DNA of 64,000 nucleotides from Octopus vulgaris. Lineage: Eukaryota. Below, piece by piece: positions 396 through 51,538 of the stretch (positions are counted from its first letter, which is position 1; each line of letters opens with the position of its first letter). The stretch spans positions 93,124,001 through 93,188,000 of the forward strand of contig OX597816.1 in assembly GCA_951406725.2 (NCBI GenBank), given 5' to 3'. Under the pieces are notes generated by a model. It had not been told where the DNA came from and searched no databases. It was given only the letters and a program-made list of their open reading frames with translations. Position numbers and translations under genes: made by a program.

Positions 396-398
<3 letters not shown>
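245..398 (+). mobile_element. tRNA-head SINE family A, 5' half ending in (TA)n
   Basis: B-box-like GGTTCAGTCCC and body (GGCAAATGCCTTCTACTATAGCC...GAAAGAAGCCC) match copies at 6948, 31357, 38605, 60521 and 43826(-). Confidence 0.8.
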
Positions 399-445
<47 letters not shown>

Positions 446-573
446 TTCAGCAACAATTTAGATTCAAATGAATATGGTACTTAATTTAGATGCACCAGAA
501 TTTTGTATAGTGTTATCCATAAAAATTTGCAGGGTGATTATAATCAAAAATGAGCAACAAGAATGACTCCAGT

Positions 574-664
574 AATTTGGTACAATTGTTTCGCACTACA
601 ACCTTTTATTAAAAGTTGTAAGTATTACAGCAGATTTAAGATGCTGAGTGCTCTTCAGCCAATT
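574..664 (-). ncRNA. Type-I hammerhead ribozyme motif (left arm)
   Basis: Minus strand reads AAUUGG-CUGAAGA-GCACU...AGUGC-GAAAC-AAUU-GUA-CCAAAUU, a canonical core with a perfect 5-bp stem II including G10.1-C11.1. Confidence 0.75.
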
Positions 665-958
665 ATATAGGTTTTCCAATAATACAAAAGCTTTTAAATC
701 AAGTAGTAACATTATAGAGAAGGTAGATATACAGATAAAGATGTAGATTTAAATTTTAAGAACATATGAGGTTCTAATTCTTATATCACTTCTAATTCTT
801 ATAGCAGTTAGATACAACCACAGTTTGGTCAGTTAGTGGCTGGATTTCACAACCTCATATGTTCTTAAAATTTAAATCTACATCTTTATCTGTATATCTA
901 CCTTCTCTATAATGTTACTACTTGATTTGAAAGCTTTTGTATTATTGGAAAACCTATA

Positions 959-1052
959 TAAATTGGCTGAAGAGCACTCAGCATCTTAAATCTGCTGTAA
1001 TACTTACAACTTTTAATAAAATGTTGTAGTGTGAAACAATTGTACCAATTTA
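959..1052 (+). ncRNA. Type-I hammerhead ribozyme motif (right arm)
   Basis: Stem I 959-966/1045-1052 (8 bp); CUGAAGA 967-973; stem II GCACU/AGUGU; GAAAC 1033-1037; palindromic ACAAUUGU; predicted cleavage after GUA at 1044. Confidence 0.75.
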
Positions 1053-1574
1053 CTGGAGTCATTCTTGTTGCTTATTTTTGAGATATATATATATATATAT
1101 ATATATACATGCATACAATCATACGTACATACATACATATATATTTAGAAAGGTAATGCTATGCAACTTTGTAATAATCCTTATTATTATTGTTGATATA
1201 TGTGCATGCATGTGTGTATGCATGCATGTGTGTATGCATGCATGTATGTATGCATGTGCATGTATATATGTTATGTGGTAATGTTTCAGCAAGTAGAAAA
1301 GCACTTGATCAGCTAAGATAGTAAGGATAATCTTAAATTAAAAACCACAAATTTTGCAAATAGCTGCCCAGGGTTTTGTGGTCAAATTGATAATTCATTC
1401 CAAGTTGAAAGTAACACTGTTTGTCAGTTGACTTTTTGAGTAGATAATGTTTAAACAGAAACACCTGTAAAATAAAGACAAAGATGGGAAAACACAAGAG
1501 AGATAACCCACATTACAATAATTCAATGTCAAACAGATGTAAATCAGATGTTTACTAAGGGTCCAGTTGTCTAC

Positions 1575-2030
1575 TTTAAATTCTGACAAGATGCATTTTT
1601 TGAAATGTGGACATAAAGGGAAAAAATCTCATTTCTCAAATTCATGTATTTTTTTGAGGTTCTCAAGTGTTTTAATAGATACAGTTTTTCAAGCAAACAC
1701 ACTGAACATTTTCAAGACCCATTAATATAAGGTCTGGATTTAGAGAGGATTCCCCATTTGATATCGAAATTGGTCCCTTTGCCTCTAAGTTTTCAGATTA
1801 AAGCTAGAGGGGTTGTTGAATGTCACACCACAGTACCTAAAATTTGAAAGATGGTTGTTATATCTAGATTTAAATTTTCCTTCCATGGCTCTAATATAAT
1901 GTTTGATATTTGTATGACCATTGTTGTAGTTTACTGTGCTTCATAAACATTGGAAGATATATTGCACTCCTGTCCTAGAGGACATTTAGATTAGTAGGGA
2001 ATGAAACTTCGTGAGGAACATGATTCTTTT
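1575..2030 (-). pseudogene. Penelope-like retroelement C-terminal GIY-YIG endonuclease relic
   Basis: Manual translation with frameshifts gives CPLGQEC...HYIRAMEGKFKSRYNNHLSNF...DIKWGILSKSRPY...KCSVCLLEKLYL...MNLRNEIFS.CPH, matching the PLE pattern CPL..YIG.TE..FK.RY.NH..C.LCL.EK..LN.R.E..C.H. Confidence 0.75.
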
Positions 2031-2315
2031 TGAATGAGATGAAGTTTATAATCAAGGATAAGACAATAGTCTTGTCAGATGTACATGTGCACCATGTCTT
2101 TTGAGGTGCTAACTTTCTTCAGGAAGCCTGCAATCTCTGTTACATTCCCAAGAACTGCCAAAGTAGGATGGTGTGGAGTGTATGTGTTCAAATATGTGTG
2201 TATAGGTAGTGATTCCAGAGTTTTGTATCTGAAAAGTTTGTAAGAGCATTGAGTTGCATGTGCAAGCATGTGTATGTAAGTGTGAGAGTGTATGTGTCTA
2301 TATTTATGTCTATAA

Positions 2316-2545
2316 GGTGGCGAGCTGGCAGAAACGTTAGCACGCCGGGCGAAATGCGTAGCCGTATTTCGTCTGTCGTTACGTTCTGAGTTCAAATTCC
2401 GCCGAGGTCGACTTTGCCTTTCATCCTTTCGGGGTCGATAAATTAAGTACCAGTTACGCACTGGGGTCGATGTAATCGACTAAATCCCTTTGTCTGTCCT
2501 TGTTTGTCCCCTCTATGTTTAGCCCCTTGTGGGTAGTAAAGAAAT
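2316..2545 (+). mobile_element. tRNA-head SINE family N (Nin/Deu-like core), young copy
   Basis: A-box-like TGGCAGAAACG, B-box GAGTTCAAATTCC and core GGTCGACTTTGCCTTTCATCCTTTCGGGGTCGATAAATTAAGTACC with CpGs retained. Older copies at about 5170, 22284, 46375, 52960(-) and 56000. Confidence 0.85.
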
Positions 2546-3156
2546 ATATATTTATGTCTATATGATATATGTATGACCTCTTTTCATAAAAAGGTCCCAA
2601 GCAAGATGAGAATCCATTTAGTGTAAGTGGCTATGATGATGGGGAAATTAAAACGAAAGACTGAATTTATTTTAGACTTGAAAAAGTTTTGGTTATATAA
2701 AGGAGGAAATCAAAAACATTGCATTTATATGTGAGATATTTGTATTCAAAACCATACTGAGTTTCTTAGTTGGGGAATGGCCAATATCATGAAGCCATTT
2801 AGTCACTTATCTTTTGTACATTATGAGAATGTACTGAGAGTCTATTGAATGTATAACTGTTTCAGCAATCATACAACAATTGACAATGTATAATGACACA
2901 CCATGCTGTCTCTTCCTGGTGTATATAATATGTCCTGTAACACCTTCACTTACAATTAACGTATATGTAATTGAAGTCATTAAAATGAATGTAATATTTC
3001 TATTATGGTTCACATAGAACATAATTGCTAGAATTCAAAATCTGGAGCCTGTATGTGGTAGCTGAGCTTACTAGAAATAGTTGTGAAATTGACTCATGTC
3101 ACATTCTAGCCATCTTTAAAATATTAAATATTCAGTTTTGTAGTTTTAGGTTCCTA

Positions 3157-3396
3157 GCACATGGGGAAAATTCATCACTTGAGTGCCTTTGCACATAGGG
3201 AAAAGTCATCACTTGAGTGCCTTTGCACATAGGGAAAAGTCATCACTTGAGTGCCTTTGCACATAGGGAAAAGTCATCACTTGAGTGCCTTTGCACATAG
3301 GGAAAAGTCATCACATGAGTGCCTTTGCACATAGGGAAAAGTCATCACTTGAGTGCCTTTGCACATAGGGAAAAATCATCACTGGAATGCTTTTGC
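3157..3396. repeat. 34-bp minisatellite, 7 copies
   Basis: Unit GCACATAGGGAAAAGTCATCACTTGAGTGCCTTT starts at 3157, 3191, 3225, 3259, 3293, 3327 and 3361. Confidence 0.95.
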
Positions 3397-4596: not shown

Positions 4597-4806
4597 TTAC
4601 TTAATATTGTGAATTATCAATGAAGAATCAACAACTTTAAAACACCACACTAAAAACTTACTAAAATTTATGACATTGTCCCACTGGATTTATTTCCCTT
4701 AACTCATTTTATGTTTCTTTTTACGTGAAACGCTTACACACATATGCAAATATTTGCATTTAAATATTTATTTAAGCTCATACATATGCCCCCATATACA
4801 AATACT
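4597..4806. repeat. About 210-bp direct repeat, copy 1 (copy 2 at 7738-7947)
   Basis: Both copies share AATATTGTGAA...AAAATTTATGACATTGTCCCACT...GAAACGCTTACACACATATGCAAATATTTGCATT. Confidence 0.9.
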
Positions 4807-5699
4807 TGTGAATAAATGTGAGACATATCAGAGTCAAAATTGTTGGGTAGTCTTGTACATGAGTATAAAGAAGAGTAAACTCAACAACAAACCCATGAAA
4901 ATAAAATTACTAAAAGCCCTGAGACATTTAACAACTAATATATGCCTTTCATTGCTTGTGGATATAAAGCAGCAAATGCCTAGCAAATGCAATCCAAAGA
5001 CAACAGCTAATTGTGTTGGTATGCTTGTGGTGTGCAATTATAATACTATTGTTTAAAGGTGATTCTTTAATTTAAAAGATTATAGCTTAAAGCAAGTAAG
5101 TTATGTTACTAATATATATAAGTAGTGAAAATATTATCTGTGTGTACCCATCATAGTAAAAGTATAGTGAATTAGTAGAGTCATTAGCAATTTGTATAGA
5201 ATACTGCTTGATATCTATTCCTGTTCTCTGTGGTCCGAATTCAAATCCTGCCAAGGTCTTCTTTGCCTATCATCATTTCAAGATTGATAAAAACATGTGA
5301 ATCCAGGTTAGTGGCTTGATGGAATGTGAGAAAGCCAAGTGAGTTGTCTTGCTGTATCTGTTGCAGCACTTTCCATTCTGACTGTGATACATGCAACATC
5401 AATGGTTCCAAGCTGTAACAGCCTTAGTTGGTGGCCTTTCTCTTGGATAAAAATCAGTGGCATGCAGAAGAAAGACTTGTACAAATAACTGCTAGCTTTT
5501 ATCCCCAAAACTTGCTCAGGCCAATATGCACATGTGCAAATGCATGGTCAGCATTAACTGATGGAGGCCCTACAACACACACACACATAAACACACACAA
5601 ACACACACACACACACATAATCACCACTAAAAAGTCAATGTTGCATTAGAACACACAAATACTGCAATATTTTCTAAGAGAGAAAATCTCATATGGTTT

Positions 5700-6203: not shown

Positions 6204-6947
6204 GTATGTATGTATGTATGTATCAGTGTGTTGAAATTACATTAATCTCTTCAAAACAAAACATTTAAATAATTATAGTTGTATTTGGGTGTTACCTTAT
6301 ATGATACAATAAAATATATTACTGATTCTTAAAATACCGAATGTGTAAGTTGTATTAAATTTGTCATTGCATTGTACTCTTCTAAATATGGTATTTCATA
6401 TCTCTACAGATATAGTGTTATAAATTACTAACTTAACCTTTGGTAAGTTTCACAAAAATCCTGCATTTCCTTTTGTCTTATCTCATCCTATTCATTTCTG
6501 CAAAAATATTTTGGGATAATCCGTTATGACCACTGTATATTCTTTCTCCTATTACCATCTTCACTACTTTACCAAACTTGTCACATCTTGCCCATTTCAC
6601 TCTGCCTGGCCAACTATATCAGTTTCCCTTTTCTGTTTTACCTTCCACATTTTTTTGTTTGTTTTTTACAATAAATGCTTCTCTTGCAGAAATTATGGCA
6701 TCTTTAAGAAGCATCCACTAGCATTTGACATCTGTAACCTTATCTTTAGGGCACCAGTCATATATCATAGCAAATATCTTTATTCTTTTATTCAACTAAG
6801 ATATCATTCCCAGTAAAATTCTTTCAAGAATGCACAAACACTCACTCTCAAATGTACTTTTTCCTGTACACAAAGATCAGAAATTTCTTTAAATATGTAA
6901 ATTAATTAACTGAAATTAATTTTTAATTTCTTACCACACAGCTACAT

Positions 6948-7083
6948 CTGTGTGGTAAAAAGTTTGGTCTCCAAACACTTTGTTCTGTGTTTAGTCCCAT
7001 TGTGTGGTACCTTGGACAAGTGTTCTGGGCTGACCAAAGCCACATGAGTGGATTTGGAAGACAGAAACTGAAAGAAGCCCATC
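6948..7083 (+). mobile_element. SINE family A 5' half, degenerate
   Basis: GGGCTGACCAAAGCC...GAGTGGATTTGG...GAAACTGAAAGAAGCCC followed by (TA)n. Confidence 0.75.
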
Positions 7084-7096
7084 ATATATATATATA

Positions 7097-7174
7097 CGAG
7101 AAGGATGTGAGATGTGTTGAAACAATTGCCATGATTAATAAATTCTCATATTCCATCTGTCTTTCATTTGCCAT
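7097..7174 (+). mobile_element. Terminal fragment of the 33-kb foldback/hammerhead family
   Basis: GATGTGTTGAAACAATTGCCATGATTAATA...TTCCATCT...TTCATTTGCCATATA matches 33575-33657 and sits within (TA)n. Confidence 0.75.
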
Positions 7175-7737
7175 ATATATATATGTGTGTGTGTGTGTGT
7201 AATACAAATGTCTTGTTTTCATAAGTTTTGAATTAAAATCTTTCACCAAACCTTAGTCACAATTTATGTTTTTTAACACTAGCTGAATGATAACTAAGTT
7301 ATTTTACTAAATTCTTTGTTATATTTAAAGCAGTTGAAAGAAACACAGAGCATCTCAAAATAATTACAGTAACAAAAGGGTTAATGAGTTGGTTTATCAC
7401 CCTCTTTCACTTTGTTTCAACATGCTTATGTTGTGTTTGACCAAAAGTCTTAACCTTAAATTGTAGTGTCAAATCATGCACACATTGTTTATTTGCCATA
7501 GTTTAACTCTTTCAACTTACTTGGTCGTCAATTACTATGAACTACTTTCATAATAATACCTAGCATGTTGTATTGTAGAAGATTCCTTACTATTATGTGT
7601 ATTGTATCATGAACATTGTTCCAGTAAGTTATATATACAAACAAATATATATGAAGAAATATAAGCAATGCTGGTTAAATATAATATATGAAAACTAAGA
7701 TAAATTTTCGTGTGCTGCTTCTTATCTTCTCACACAT

Positions 7738-7947: not shown

Positions 7948-9524
7948 ATAGAAACACAAATATAATCACAAGCATCAACATATACATTTTCTCATAAATT
8001 TAAGACACACTCATAGTTTCTACAGCTCATTTATTTCAAACCAATATGGTTTACATTTCAACCTTCAGATATTAGAGCAGCCAATATATAGTAATACACA
8101 GATGACAGTTTAGTTGCCTATACATTCTCATTTTTATAGTCAAGGCATTTTGGCTAGTAAAGAGAAATCAATATGATTGTTTTTCTTCAGTTTTCTGCTC
8201 TATTTTTCATCATGATAGCATGAGACTAATCAGTACACAGAAGTACCGTTTCTCAGCTAGACATGTTAACATCACATATCTTAAACTTATTCATTGACCT
8301 CTCTCCTATGCTGTGTAAATTTCTTTTGTCTGTTTTACTTACCATTCAATACAAACCTATAATATTTGTGATATATGTTCACCTAGTTCTCCTATCTTTT
8401 GTGTGTACATAGAAATACTATTATGTCAACAAAAGCAGAAATACTCTAAACCTCTTGCTGTCACAACAATTTCTATTTAACTGTCACATCACTGTCTTCT
8501 TCAATAACACTGATTACATTGCTTAAGTCAAAAAATCTTCTTTACTGCTTCAAGTAATCAGCTTATGTGCCTCATGAAACATACAGGCTCTATGTACTAG
8601 TGCAGCATATGCATTTGTACATAGCATACATAGTATTTCCATGCAGAAATCCTCAATATTTTCTGGTTTATCAAATATTTTGTTCATACTAAGGTAAAAA
8701 TATTACAATTCAATTTTCCTCCGGTTCAACAAATACATAATAGCATTACACTCATCTCAGAATTTGATTTTCTACTCTATCAAAAATATAACTTTCCTCT
8801 GTTTAGATGCAGGTCAATTCCGTTAGTGAAATAGTTATAGATTATTGAATTGACTGTGGTTTAATACTGGTACTAACTGAATCAACCTGGAACAATAAAG
8901 TCACTTCTTGAGGAGTTTATCTGCAGAAATATGAGGCATGAAACTTAATACTATTAAGCAACTGTTTCTGCTCTTTACTCTTTCTGCCAAATCATATGCC
9001 CTTTTCTCTTATGCACTTAAGTTCTATGAGGTTAAACAGAATAAATAATCATATAAGTAAATCAAATATTCCTGCTAATAGTATAGTTAGTTTACCTCCC
9101 AGATTGAATATATGCTTCATGTAAGGAAAACACCAGCCAAAATAATTAAATAAGAGACCTAAATATTCCTTTCTACTCATATATTCTTCTTTGTGTATTC
9201 AGGAATATTGTATAATCTAATGTTATTAGCATGTCACATGACTTCATGAATGAGAACTGATTCATAAATTCAGTTCAAAGTATTTAAGATATAAACTATT
9301 TTAACTGAAACCTCATAAATGACTAATTCCTTCTTAATAGTGATCATAGACTGTATAAGCAAATGAGAGGAAAACTGGCAATGTAACATAGTTTCTTCAT
9401 TCATTTGGTTTGTTTTGCATTCACTTTTCCATGCAAGAAAAAAAAGTAGTAAATATCCACAGTCACACACTCACATATACTCAAACATACGTATGTGTGT
9501 TTGTATACATGCTTATATGGTAGG

Positions 9525-34135: not shown

Positions 34136-37100
34136 GCTACCCCAACAGCACATGTGTATACACACACACAAGTCATGAAGTAAAATCATTTTCTTACGCA
34201 TTTATCTACCTATCGACTTTCTCTATGCTGTTTTTCTTTTTGTTTTGTTTGTTTCTTTTTGGCAAAATATATTGATCTAAAGTCATTGCTCTATTCATTG
34301 TATAATATTTTTAAAGAAATGTCCAAACAGTATCAATCCATTCATTATTGAGCAAAATATTTCTAAATTGAACAATGACTTAGATTTGAAAAAAAATCAT
34401 TTGTTATTAACCAAGTTAGCAACCATCTGGGAAAACACTAACGTTATAGAACTTTTAAACATTCACTAATGCTTTTAATGACAAAAAAAAATTGAATCAT
34501 TCAAGTTAAATTTTGTTTTGTCATTCACAGTCATTCTGCTGCAAGGCTCCAGAGACTTAAACCTTGAATCAAACAAAATTATCCATTCGTTTTCAGAAAC
34601 ATTTTAATAATTTTAATCTATTACTTCCAATTGTTGAAGTTATATGTGGTTCTGTTGGTTTTTGTTAGTAAAATACGATAAGTTATTCAGTTCATTTTTT
34701 TGCTTAACACAACCAAAATTCTATTACAGAAGATTGAAAGTAAGAAGCTAGTAATGTCTTTTACTAAGTTACTGATTCAATATTAAATATATAAGTTTAA
34801 AGTTCACTTCTTACAATGCAATTTAACAAGGTTATACTTCAATGCAGGAAAAGCTGAAATTTTTCTTAAAGGGTTACAAAGCAATGTTAATATATTAATG
34901 TTTTCTTAGATTTACTTTTAGACTATTGTTTTTATCTCTGCTCTTATTTGAAGTACCACAAATCTTCCTTTTCTGTCTTTCTTTGACTTAATATCCTCTT
35001 TCCATCTTATTTTCTCTACCATTTTCAAGTCTTTTTTTTTTTGTTCTATTTTATTTTATTTATTTATTTACTTTTTATGCTATGCAATTCAAAGTGTAAA
35101 GTATCTTCAAATGTTTTAGAATATTTCCATAAGGTATAAATGATATCAATAAATATTTCTGAGAAAAATTAATACAAAATATGTTTTCCCAGTATTTGAT
35201 TTATAATAATTTTGTCATCAGCTTATTTATTGCTTTTATTACAACAACATTGCTGCTTATCTTAAAATTAACACCAAGTTTTGTGTATTTGCAGTTTTTT
35301 CTGCCCCTACCTACTCTTGCCCCATAAAAAAATTCATGTTTCTTTCAAAATTATTAATTTCTATTTGATAATTTCCTGGTATTTTTATACAATAATTTAT
35401 AGTTTGGTGAACAGTTACTACATCAAAAGTACATTTTCTTCAGCCATTTAAATGTGTAACCATCTTAGAGTTGATCTATGTTCAGTCTGAACACTTTGGA
35501 AACTTATGAAAGAACTCATTTCAATTCTACGTGTGAACAGTAGGGAGTGTAAAAATCTCTAGAAAGATTTAATCTCAAGTAGGTAAAGAAAGTAAAACAA
35601 TGGTGTTTTGAATCTTTCAAAGTTAGGAGAGGAACCTTTTAAAACTCTTTGAATAACCACTAGTTCAATGTTATTCTTGGCAATCACAACAAATACACAA
35701 TATATTTAAGTCTATTGTTTAAGATATATGACAATATTTTGTATATTTTTGTTTTTCCATTATGTCTACATATAATTTTGCTCATGAATGCATTTATCAC
35801 TTTAAAATTGTTGCTATTAATTTTACAACTTCCACAATAACAAAACACTGGTACAATTTGAACTTGAAAGCATATGATCTTGAGTCTCATATTCTGCTAT
35901 TAAACGACCACTCTATTATTCCAAACAATAAGAAATGAACAATGTAACTTTGACAAAAAAAATATAGAAAATAGAGAACAGAATTTGTTATTCCATTGCT
36001 GGAAATATAATTGTATTGAGATCATGCATATAGATTTTTTGGCATTCAATAATCAATGAAAGAGAGAAAATAGGAAAAGTTTACTTTAATTCAAATTAAT
36101 TATACAAATGGATAATAAATTGTATCAGAGAATGAAGCTAAGAAAAAGTTTGAAACAGTTGAGAACAATAAAATCAATAAGATAAAGTGTCCACAACAAT
36201 AGGTGAATGGTATCAGATATAATTCAGAGAGGAAAAAGAACTCAAGATCAGTATATGTCATCAGTTGCTTTGGCCTTACACACAGGCTGGCTTTTACACA
36301 TCACTCTTTAGAATTAAGATGTCAGCCATAGATGTTGAGTTATCTGGTAAATATAACCTATTTGCTTTGGTTATCATCTTACGAAGTGACCATAGTATTT
36401 ATTGAATTGCATTATAAATGGTGATATTGTGCAGTTGACTAATTTTAGAACTGACAAATATCAGTAGGGGTTTTGTGTCAAAAGAGCAACATAACCTTCA
36501 TCTAACCTTATACAGAAGTCTTTTATCACAAAAATAAAACTTAGCAATCATTATGGAAGTTAGTGGTTAACTGGGACTTTTTTTGAATATTAATTACTTT
36601 TGGCCTGTTGTTGTTGCTATTGTTATTATTGATTTACCTACAGTCTATTGTACTGATAGAATCTTAGCTATTCTTCTGATTTACTAAGTTGTTAGTTCAT
36701 TTTTTTTCTTGCTTTCTAATAGTTCAATGTATCTCTTCCTCTTATGAATTAAAATGTCAGCAATGGTTTGGATAGCTTGACCTTTCTGATCTTTCCCAAA
36801 TGGTCCTCATACTTATGTGAAGGTACACGAAACACACTTATATACACATCCTTCACTCTCTTGTATTTAGATGTTAACGCAAAGCTAAAAGAAGAATCTT
36901 GAATTTACTGTTTGCCATGCATTTTTCAATGGAATCTTTGTTGAGATAGATTTAGCAAAATTTTTGGCAGTTGCATTTTGTTGAAGCAATTCTGTTTTAC
37001 ATCTAGATGTCTTTCCCATGGCTAAGTATTTAATTCTAAATCTAGCTAGAATCTCTTCATAAGCTGGACAACCTCAGGTAAACAAAGTTATTTATCATTT

Positions 37101-50286: not shown

Positions 50287-51538
50287 CAGGGGTTGGACAA
50301 AATAATGGAAACACCTTAAAATTTCAAATAAATTTGTTTTAATATTGAGTAGGACCGTCTTTGGCAGTAATTACAGTTTGAATTCTATGAGGTATGGACT
50401 TGTACATAGTTTGAATTGTTTCCAAAGGAATTTTTGTTCATTCTTCAGCTAAAACAGTCTGCAGCGATGATGGCGGAGGATATCAACTCTTTACTTGTTT
50501 TTCTAAACTGCATCATAAATGTTCAATAAAATTGTGATCTGGGGACTGTGGTGGCCAGATAAGATGTTCAACTTCACTAGAATGTTCCTCGTACCAGTCA
50601 GTAACAACTTTAGCTGTATGAATTGGTGCATTATCATCCTAAAAGATTGTGTTTCCCTCCAGAAACAGTTCTACAACCATAGGAAAAATTTGATCAGACA
50701 AAATGCTTAAATAGTCTTGACTATTAATTTTACCATGAAGGAAAACCATTGGGCTGGTGAAATTCCAAGATATAGCTCCCCCCACCCCCAGATCATCACA
50801 GATCCTCCTCCATTTTTGAAGAAGGCAGTCTGGGTCAAATGCATCTCTTGGCTGTCTCCACACATATACTCAGCCAGTGGTCGGAAATAAGGTAAAGGAT
50901 GACTCATCCGACAAAATAACATTCTTCCACTGCTCTAGGGACCAATTCCATAGGTTTTTACTCCACTCTAAACGCTTTGCAATGTTTGTTTTTGAAAGTA
51001 GTGGTTTTCTGTTTGCAGCCCTCCCATGAAATCCAACTTTGTGCTTCTCCCAGCTAACAGTTTTAGTAGAAACTAAGTTCTCGAGGTGGTCATTAAGCTC
51101 TTCAGTAATTTTGGGAGCTGTACTTTTGTGATCCTTTCTAACAATTTGTGTAAGAGTCCGACTGTACCTATCTGAAAGTTTTGGTTTTCTCCTAGAGTTT
51201 TTTTTTTCCCCCTTCTTTCTCAAAGGCTCTCATTACTTTTGAGACAGTACTTCTTCATACACCAAACAATTTGGCCATTTTTGTTACACTAGCACCTGCC
51301 ATATGAACACCAACAATTTGACTCTTTGAAAGTCCAATAGATCTGTCATTTTAATGAATTTTAATTACCTTTTTCTGATGATATCTGAAAAGAAACAGCA
51401 ATTTTAGCAAAATATATTAAGCAACACTAATAATAAATTTAAAAACATAAAAATAAACAAGCTTTTGACGATTTTATAGATATTTCAAAATTATGATGCT
51501 ATGATGCTAGGTGCTTCCATTATTTTGTCTAACCCTTG
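50287..51538 (-). mobile_element. Full-length Tc1-like transposon (DD36E spacing) with TA TSD
   Basis: TA|CAGGGGTTGGACAAAATAATGGAAACACC ... GGTGCTTCCATTATTTTGTCTAACCCTTG|TA; 1252 bp. Confidence 0.92.
50339..51349 (-). pseudogene. Tc1-family DDE transposase pseudogene
   Basis: MTDLLDFQR...GRAANRKPLL...WKNVILSDESSF...GGGSVMIWG...F*DDNAPIHTAK...WPPQSPDHNFIEHL, with several stops and frameshifts. Confidence 0.92.

What the first reader, a model, noticed from the sequence alone, without database searches (positions are those of the whole stretch)
544..1081. Young 230-bp foldback with a hammerhead ribozyme motif on each strand
The arms differ at only about 6 positions. Both keep CUGAAGA...GAAAC...GUA with paired stems I and II. 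Transcription from either direction would give an RNA with one hammerhead plus its antisense copy, so a long dsRNA hairpin would compete with ribozyme folding. Such a hairpin is also a plausible ADAR or Dicer substrate (inference).
Basis: partly seen in the sequence, partly recalled or inferred. Interest (0 to 1): 0.75.

Follow-up and report, generated by a model that had tools for sequence, protein, structure and literature searches.

The report
Hydra retroelement ends with long-armed hammerheads
The foldback is two head-to-head end pieces of a Penelope-like jumping gene, likely left by one insertion in a layout already known for these elements; each piece carries a predicted self-cutting RNA motif with an unusually long arm that holds a likely polyadenylation signal.

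Summary
In detail: arms 544-773 and 851-1081 differ at 6 of 231 columns, and each carries an intact type I hammerhead core (predicted cuts after 1044 and 581). The unit is larger than reported (444-1082, between (TA)n tracts). It is a 5'-truncated Hydra-clade Penelope-like element. The 'spacer' is element body, the left arm has a 100-nt family tail, and a longer copy carries RT and GIY-YIG upstream of the same hammerhead. The inverted layout is published and common here: 11 of 27 family loci examined; 17 of 17 simple pairs have one tail. The arms are no closer to each other than to the best other copies (97.4%). In read-through RNA the hairpin is predicted to abolish ribozyme folding; no locus-specific RNA or editing evidence was obtained. 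Two features are unusual. Helix II is a covarying 57-60-nt rod (10-25 nt in relatives), which Rfam misses. It holds AATAAA/ATTAAA 23-26 nt before the cut (88 of 88 contexts), whereas in metagenomic relatives the hexamer lies at or just after the cut (20 of 37 clusters; 2 of 674 control windows). This scan already reported long-armed Hydra hammerheads elsewhere in this genome. Cleavage is untested.

The parts
398..443 (.). (TA)23 microsatellite, left flank (likely insertion target)
   Evidence: family ends run into (TA)n
444..543 (-). 100-nt family 'tail', present on this arm only; in tandem copies it is the leader between the hammerhead and the ORF start
544..773 (-). inverted 5'-truncated copy of the element's 3' end (left arm)
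577..662 (-). type I hammerhead motif, left arm; C3 at 658, predicted cut after N17 at 581; G10.1-C11.1 intact
   Evidence: alignment
605..610 (-). AATAAA hexamer inside helix II (left arm)
   Evidence: sequence; conservation
774..850 (+). 'spacer': element 3' UTR continuing the right arm upstream (family match from 776); a 14-nt local repeat (772-785 = 790-803) lies at the junction
851..1081 (+). right arm, ending at the family's short terminus 37 nt after the predicted cut
963..1048 (+). type I hammerhead motif, right arm; core 967-973 and 1033-1036, predicted cut after A1044; G10.1-U11.1 wobble
974..1032 (+). 59-nt rod-like helix II with apical hairpin, covarying across sister families
1015..1020 (+). 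AATAAA hexamer inside helix II, ending 24 nt before N17 (likely poly(A) signal)
1036..1043 (+). palindromic helix III ACAATTGT (ACGATCGT in sister families), predicted dimer interface
1062..1072 (+). conserved GU/U-rich stretch downstream of the cut (candidate downstream poly(A) element or RT-binding site)
   Evidence: seen in families A-D, (it was also a filter in that script)
1083..1107 (.). (AT)12.5 microsatellite, right flank

Best explanation
444-1082 consists of two head-to-head, 5'-truncated 3' ends of a Hydra-clade Penelope-like retrotransposon between (TA)n tracts, likely made in one insertion event, and each end carries the element's own predicted hammerhead ribozyme. Shown: family membership, link to an RT + GIY-YIG element, layout and tail asymmetry. 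Inferred mechanism: the element's endonuclease cuts both strands of the (TA)n target and reverse transcription is primed twice on uncleaved RNA. One start lies 37 nt after the hammerhead cut site (right arm) and one about 100 nt further on (left arm plus tail). Both cDNAs stop early and are joined at their 5' ends. The hammerhead likely evolved to process tandem element RNA as a dimer through its palindromic helix III. At this locus it is probably a passenger that the 230-bp hairpin would silence in read-through RNA.
For: 1,740 first-look candidates and 46 matches from 40 scored in the own genome. L031 holds inverted 3' end + RT (YRDD) + GIY-YIG (Pfam E 6.4e-4, below the curated cut-off) + the same hammerhead. 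Hydra diagnostics are in a sister-family ORF and partly in family-A pieces, matching section 11 of PMC8557442. Each arm holds element sequence the other lacks (tail on the left, 77 nt upstream on the right), so neither was copied from the other. 11 of 27 distinct family-A loci, this one included, are inverted pairs (partner of L015 seen). 17 of 17 simple pairs over three families have exactly one tail. The layout is described in PMC8557442 and PMC4209133 (opposite-strand hammerheads 100-700 bp apart). Two RT start sites, both-strand extension and uncleaved template were shown in vitro for another PLE (PMC11167929).
Against: No intact ORF of family A itself was seen; the complete motif set was read from sister family D (RT about 84% identical to the family-A piece). 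Pfam found no RT domain in four long ORFs. One complex insertion (L093) has two tail-less outer ends, so the one-tail rule is not absolute, and the queries for families B and C contained the tail. The tail is about 100 nt, against the published 30-40. No minus-strand hammerhead was found in 78 metagenomic Hydra-type loci, which are short contigs. ViennaRNA gives the right arm's rod helix II only about 0.09 probability in isolation, so this copy may fold poorly. No cleavage data.
Confidence: 0.92

Rival explanations
1. A host-selected regulatory device: a ribozyme/antisense switch or an ADAR/Dicer substrate.
For: A 230-bp near-perfect hairpin would form if transcribed; family sequence is present in contigs of three runs guessed to be RNA.
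Against: The same layout occurs at 10 other of 27 family loci. Arm divergence is ordinary. The A>G and T>C differences in the RNA-guessed runs also occur in the run that covers unique flank like DNA, so they look like family variants.
Confidence: 0.04
2. A MITE or foldback DNA transposon whose terminal inverted repeats captured a hammerhead.
For: Long inverted repeats, short spacer, TA-rich flanks, many copies.
Against: Arm lengths vary from 44 to about 750 bp between loci, the spacer is collinear element body, the ends are asymmetric, and the body leads to RT + GIY-YIG.
Confidence: 0.015
3. A non-autonomous retrozyme (short tandem hammerhead unit replicated through circular RNA).
For: Type I hammerhead with palindromic helix III; retrozymes are related to PLE ends (bioRxiv 10.64898/2026.07.22.740005, passages).
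Against: No tandem short unit; the sequence is the 3' UTR of a 3.5-4.7-kb coding unit.
Confidence: 0.015
4. An assembly artefact, or a DNA-level inverted duplication of one copy after insertion.
For: Palindromes can be artefacts; no listed contig bridges the 773/774 junction.
Against: Six arm differences, each arm with element sequence missing from the other, and the same asymmetric layout at many loci.
Confidence: 0.01

Closest known systems
Hydra clade of Penelope-like elements, incl. Hydra-1_Obim and Penelope-13_HM (Craig et al. 2021, PMC8557442; passages, section 11, supplement parts 1, 2 and 52 of 59)
   Same: RW[K/R], DKT, CxCX5C linker, CxxC and CxH around E/N, no CCHH, C-terminal GIY-YIG, (TA)n target, 3' type I hammerhead, inverted 5'-truncated copy (listed for Penelope-13_HM), tail at one end.
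   Different: Helix II segment 57-60 nt against at most about 25 nt in their Hydra rows; unit 3.5-4.7 kb against mostly <3 kb; ORF 980-1090 aa with Asn-rich inserts; tail about 100 nt against 30-40. The Hydra-1_Obim hammerhead row is a different, short motif.
Minimal and short-helix-III type I hammerheads of metazoan PLEs (Cervera & de la Pena 2014, PMC4209133; parts 1-2 of 4 read)
   Same: Type I topology, short helix I, palindromic helix III predicted to need a dimer, dual motifs on opposite strands 100-700 bp apart.
   Different: Their helix II is 7-8 bp; here it is an irregular rod of about 20 bp. Their tested motifs cleaved weakly, and only as dimers or mimics.
Poseidon PAc of Anolis (Frangieh et al. 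2024, PMC11167929; parts 1-2 of 4 read)
   Same: Two RT initiation sites defining a tail, both target strands extended, AT-rich target, uncleaved RNA as template.
   Different: Different clade. The PAc ORF starts inside the hammerhead; here the ATG lies about 190-210 nt after the cut and the tail is non-coding leader.
PLE-X1_sMoe hammerhead (same supplement, File S2) and the Clec2 3' UTR hammerhead (review passage, PMC6765202)
   Same: PLE-X1_sMoe has a helix II segment of about 53 nt, flagged as non-canonical, so long helix II has a PLE precedent. In Clec2, cleavage separates the mRNA from its poly(A) signal.
   Different: Plant EN- element and mammalian host gene. Neither passage describes a hexamer inside the ribozyme or spanning its cut.

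Membership tests
Penelope-like element (EN+) | Single ORF with RT and C-terminal GIY-YIG linked to this 3' end | tested here: met
   L031: RT 4801-5628, GIY-YIG 6799-7392 (Pfam E 6.4e-4, under the cut-off), same hammerhead at 7959; frame broken in this copy. Unbroken 980-1091-aa frames in sister families.
Penelope-like element (EN+) | Pseudo-LTRs: partial tandems, inverted 5'-truncated copy, tail at one end | tested here: met
   Tandem hammerheads 3465-4722 bp apart; 11 of 27 inverted; 17 of 17 simple pairs with one tail.
Hydra clade | RWK motif and DKG changed to DKT | tested here: met
   IRWR/IRWK and PADKTGN; family-A copies L089/L092 appear to read RWI at the first motif (DNA), L090 has ADKTGN.
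Hydra clade | CxCX5C linker, CxxC and CxH around E and N, no CCHH | tested here: met
   CNCRIRSKC, CQLCSME, SCIH in family A (L031) and family D.
Hydra clade | Insertion into (TA)n | tested here: met
   Both ends here; 90 of 102 ends reach a TA run within 140 nt, and several of the other 12 are internal pLTRs.
Hydra clade | Placement in an RT phylogeny with reference PLE clades | not tested
   No reference set of Neptune/Nematis/Poseidon proteins was available as tool sequence; no tree was built.
Neptune clade | CX2-5CxxC linker and CCHH motif in EN | tested here: not met
   Linker is CxCX5C and CCHH was not seen; my first guess, dropped.
Type I hammerhead ribozyme | Conserved core nucleotides and NUH triplet | tested here: met
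   Both arms; core columns invariant in 19 of 19 aligned copies, which were chosen by a scan for that core.
Type I hammerhead ribozyme | Helices I, II, III with covariation | tested here: met
   91.3% of cells paired, 15 of 29 pairs with two-sided change, slid controls 32-47%. The 19 rows fall into about six related groups, so the events are few.
Type I hammerhead ribozyme | Match to an Rfam hammerhead model | tested here: not met
   likely because of the 59-nt helix II (inference).
Type I hammerhead ribozyme | Mg2+-dependent self-cleavage | not testable with these tools
   Only contigs were available; they cannot show RNA ends.
MITE / foldback DNA transposon | Fixed terminal inverted repeats shared by all copies | tested here: not met
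   Variable arm lengths and asymmetric ends.
Animal non-LTR retrozyme | Short non-coding tandem unit | tested here: not met
   3' UTR of a coding unit, not tandem here.

The most novel reading that the evidence does not exclude
In Hydra-clade elements the hammerhead and the poly(A) signal are one coupled 3'-end switch. In short-armed relatives the ribozyme cuts through or just before AAUAAA/AUUAAA. In this lineage the hexamer has moved into an enlarged helix II, so the ribozyme cut falls inside the poly(A) cleavage window. Folding would then decide between a polyadenylated message, a self-cleaved RNA and the read-through RNA needed as insertion template.
Probability: 0.3. Interest if true: 0.68.

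Novelty: new variant of a known kind. Interest (0 to 1): 0.36.

Why it matters
The locus itself is ordinary. The family offers two things. First, hammerheads with a 57-60-nt helix II escape Rfam here and exceed the sizes in the published Hydra table, so ribozyme counts in such genomes are probably too low. Second, the role of PLE hammerheads is an open question (they were dispensable for insertion in vitro in PMC11167929), and the tight positional link to a poly(A) hexamer gives a simple reporter test. As a by-product, such insertions scatter long dsRNA hairpins and two-way poly(A) signals through the genome.

Tried and rejected
Two-hairpin junction on helix II (suggested by single-sequence folds): rejected; its extra hairpins are 70-71% paired with 1 two-sided pair each, against 89-90% and 7 + 3 two-sided pairs for the rod. 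Neptune assignment: rejected on motifs. Rfam: no hammerhead hit. Pfam found no RT domain in four long ORFs or in the L031 RT piece. The look-up of sequencing runs: no RNA holder listed on record. Laying contigs of X1, X3, X5 and X18 on 444-850 showed family sequence, no listed piece bridging the 773/774 junction, and no editing signature separable from family variants. On 1270-3100 the three RNA-guessed runs covered little besides a high-copy repeat, plus one 199-nt exact contig in X3; this is no evidence either way on transcription. No host gene was recognised among 34 stop-to-stop frames of at least 110 aa; small exons are not excluded. One search paired 21 neighbours; 4 were dropped (one cross-family pair, three involving an internal pLTR that runs on into an ORF). 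Lunse et al. 2017 was not held under its DOI or PMC id, so its variants were not seen, and one search returned an unrelated paper. Literature searches; none listed a paper on long-helix-II Hydra hammerheads or on a poly(A) hexamer tied to PLE hammerheads, but subscription journals, Repbase and bioRxiv supplements are not covered. Earlier-findings look-ups by place, sequence and words were empty; one search returned a different (permuted) hammerhead class.

Full report
Observation. The inverted repeat is real: 544-773 and 851-1081 align over 231 columns with 6 differences. Each arm, read outward, has helix I, CUGAAGA, a 59-nt segment closed by GCAC/GUG(U/C), GAA, the palindrome ACAAUUGU and A17. 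C3 is at 967(+) and 658(-), N17 at 1044 and 581. Rfam gives no hammerhead hit at gathering score or at E<=10.

What it is. A search of the own genome (2.8 Gb; octopus-like by inference from protein hits and a recalled SINE resemblance) gave 1,740 first-look candidates, 40 scored, 46 matches. Other copies match 776-1081 collinearly, so the spacer is element body. The left flank 444-543 is a 100-nt tail shared by the family, and both ends run into (TA)n. Each arm thus holds element sequence that the other lacks, so neither was copied from the other. Locus L031 has an inverted 3' end, then RT (GGLYRDD), a cysteine linker, GIY-YIG (Pfam E 6.4e-4, under the cut-off) and a 3' UTR ending in the same hammerhead. 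An RT search returned 150 scored matches from 8,596 candidates, some in unbroken frames of 980-1091 aa. The sister-family ORF shows IRWR, PADKTGN, CNCRIKSKC, CQLCSME and SCIH, and I saw no CCHH; the family-A endonuclease is 57% identical with the same motifs. These are the Hydra diagnostics in section 11 of PMC8557442. No RT tree was built.

The layout is known and common. PMC8557442 (passages) describes an adjacent inverted 5'-truncated copy and a tail at one end. PMC4209133 (parts 1-2) reports dual hammerheads on opposite strands 100-700 bp apart. PMC2377424 (passages) describes inverted terminal repeats in Drosophila Penelope. Here 11 of 27 distinct family-A loci are inverted pairs (the partner of L015 seen). 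Among 102 distinct 3' ends from 102 loci, 21 head-to-head neighbours were found. After dropping one cross-family pair and three involving internal pLTRs, 17 of 17 had exactly one tail, on either the longer or the shorter arm. One complex insertion (L093) has two tail-less outer ends, and the family B and C queries contained the tail, which biases those rows.

Age. The arms are 97.4% identical to each other, the same as each arm's best match among 30 other copies; five other pairs are 93.6-98.8%. Sister family C is younger, with top hits at 98-100%.

Mechanism (inferred). For an Anolis PLE, purified protein cut and extended both target strands, began reverse transcription at two internal sites that match the short and tail ends, and used uncleaved RNA (PMC11167929, parts 1-2). 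The one-tail pattern fits two primings, one per site, with the truncated cDNAs joined head to head; a 14-nt local repeat lies at the junction. Both arms run 37 nt or more past the predicted cut, so the template was uncleaved there. In tandem copies the tail is the leader before the ATG, about 190-210 nt after the cut.

The ribozyme. Sister families A, A2, B, C, C2 and D all have 57-60 nt between the core halves. On 19 hand-picked copies, a rod-like helix II with an apical hairpin gives 91.3% paired cells and 15 of 29 pairs with two-sided changes, with slid controls at 32-47%. A two-hairpin model fails in its extra helices. The rows are related, so these reflect few events. Helix III varies ACAAUUGU / ACGAUUGU / ACGAUCGU and stays self-complementary, as expected for a dimer; predicted duplex energies are -6.4 and -10.0 kcal/mol for the two perfect palindromes. 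In the published Hydra table the segment is at most about 25 nt, and only a plant PLE-X row reaches about 53 (supplement part 2). In 78 metagenomic Hydra-type loci (best 80 of 492 relatives), 59 had a motif, 70 motifs in all, each with 10-25 nt.

Poly(A) hexamer. Shuffle chance for that 14-nt window is 0.4-5% per family, and the families are related. In the metagenomic set, 20 of 37 clusters (85% identity) have the hexamer ending 5-14 nt after N17, and in 7 it begins at N17, so the cut splits it; 2 of 674 control windows hold one. The window was chosen after seeing the data and the clusters share ancestry, so the printed P value is overstated. By eye, the published Hydra-1_aMil row also shows ATTAAA across the cut. 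Predicted pairing of the hexamer is partial and variable, so masking by the fold is not shown. Searches listed no paper on this link; Lunse et al. 2017 could not be read.

At this locus. The foldback folds at -378.5 kcal/mol and the 11 ribozyme pairs tested drop to probability 0.000. Because the arms point outward, the antisense arm is transcribed first in either direction. Only transcription starting inside the element would free a hammerhead (inference; a pLTR promoter is described for Drosophila Penelope, and was not tested here). Contigs of three RNA-guessed runs hold family sequence but give no locus-specific, end or editing information.

Verdict. A Hydra-clade PLE remnant in a known layout, carrying a long-helix-II hammerhead variant that this scan has already noted on other DNA of the same genome. 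The positional link between cut site and poly(A) hexamer in wider Hydra-type elements is the one addition that merits a bench test.

Noticed in passing
L103-L180 (metagenome loci): In Hydra-type elements with short helix II, AATAAA/ATTAAA ends 5-14 nt after N17 in 20 of 37 clusters and spans the cut in 7; 2 of 674 control windows hold one.
   Followed up: partly
L052 3289-3385 (-), L097 near 8102 (-) and near 7236 (+): Other hammerheads with 60-, 31- and 51-nt helix II segments and different helix III palindromes; the 51-nt one also has AATAAA near the end of the segment. Their elements were not traced.
   Followed up: partly
L036 2676-4674; L032 5729-7847; L059 1195-2209: Hydra insertions of different families sit next to or inside each other at one (TA)n site.
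   Followed up: no
L031 2754-3491: A second, short-type GIY-YIG fragment of another Hydra-like family lies just beyond the inverted arm.
   Followed up: no
L093 2900-6175, L095 3026-5965: Long Asn-rich low-complexity inserts between RT and endonuclease make these ORFs 980-1090 aa against about 700 aa in homologs.
   Followed up: no
window 2313-2553: Very high-copy repeat resembling an octopus SINE (label recalled, from no call).
   Followed up: no
window 3157-3396: 34-bp tandem repeat, 7.1 copies, 96% matches.
   Followed up: no
window 50870-51229 (-): Frame resembling a Tc1/mariner transposase fragment (label recalled).
   Followed up: no
window 35328-35443 (-): Weak hammerhead-like pattern with 3-4-bp stems; probably chance.
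   Followed up: no
L059 near 54 (+), L071 near 961 (+), L034 near 8149 (-): Minimal short-helix hammerheads of other repeat families.
   Followed up: no
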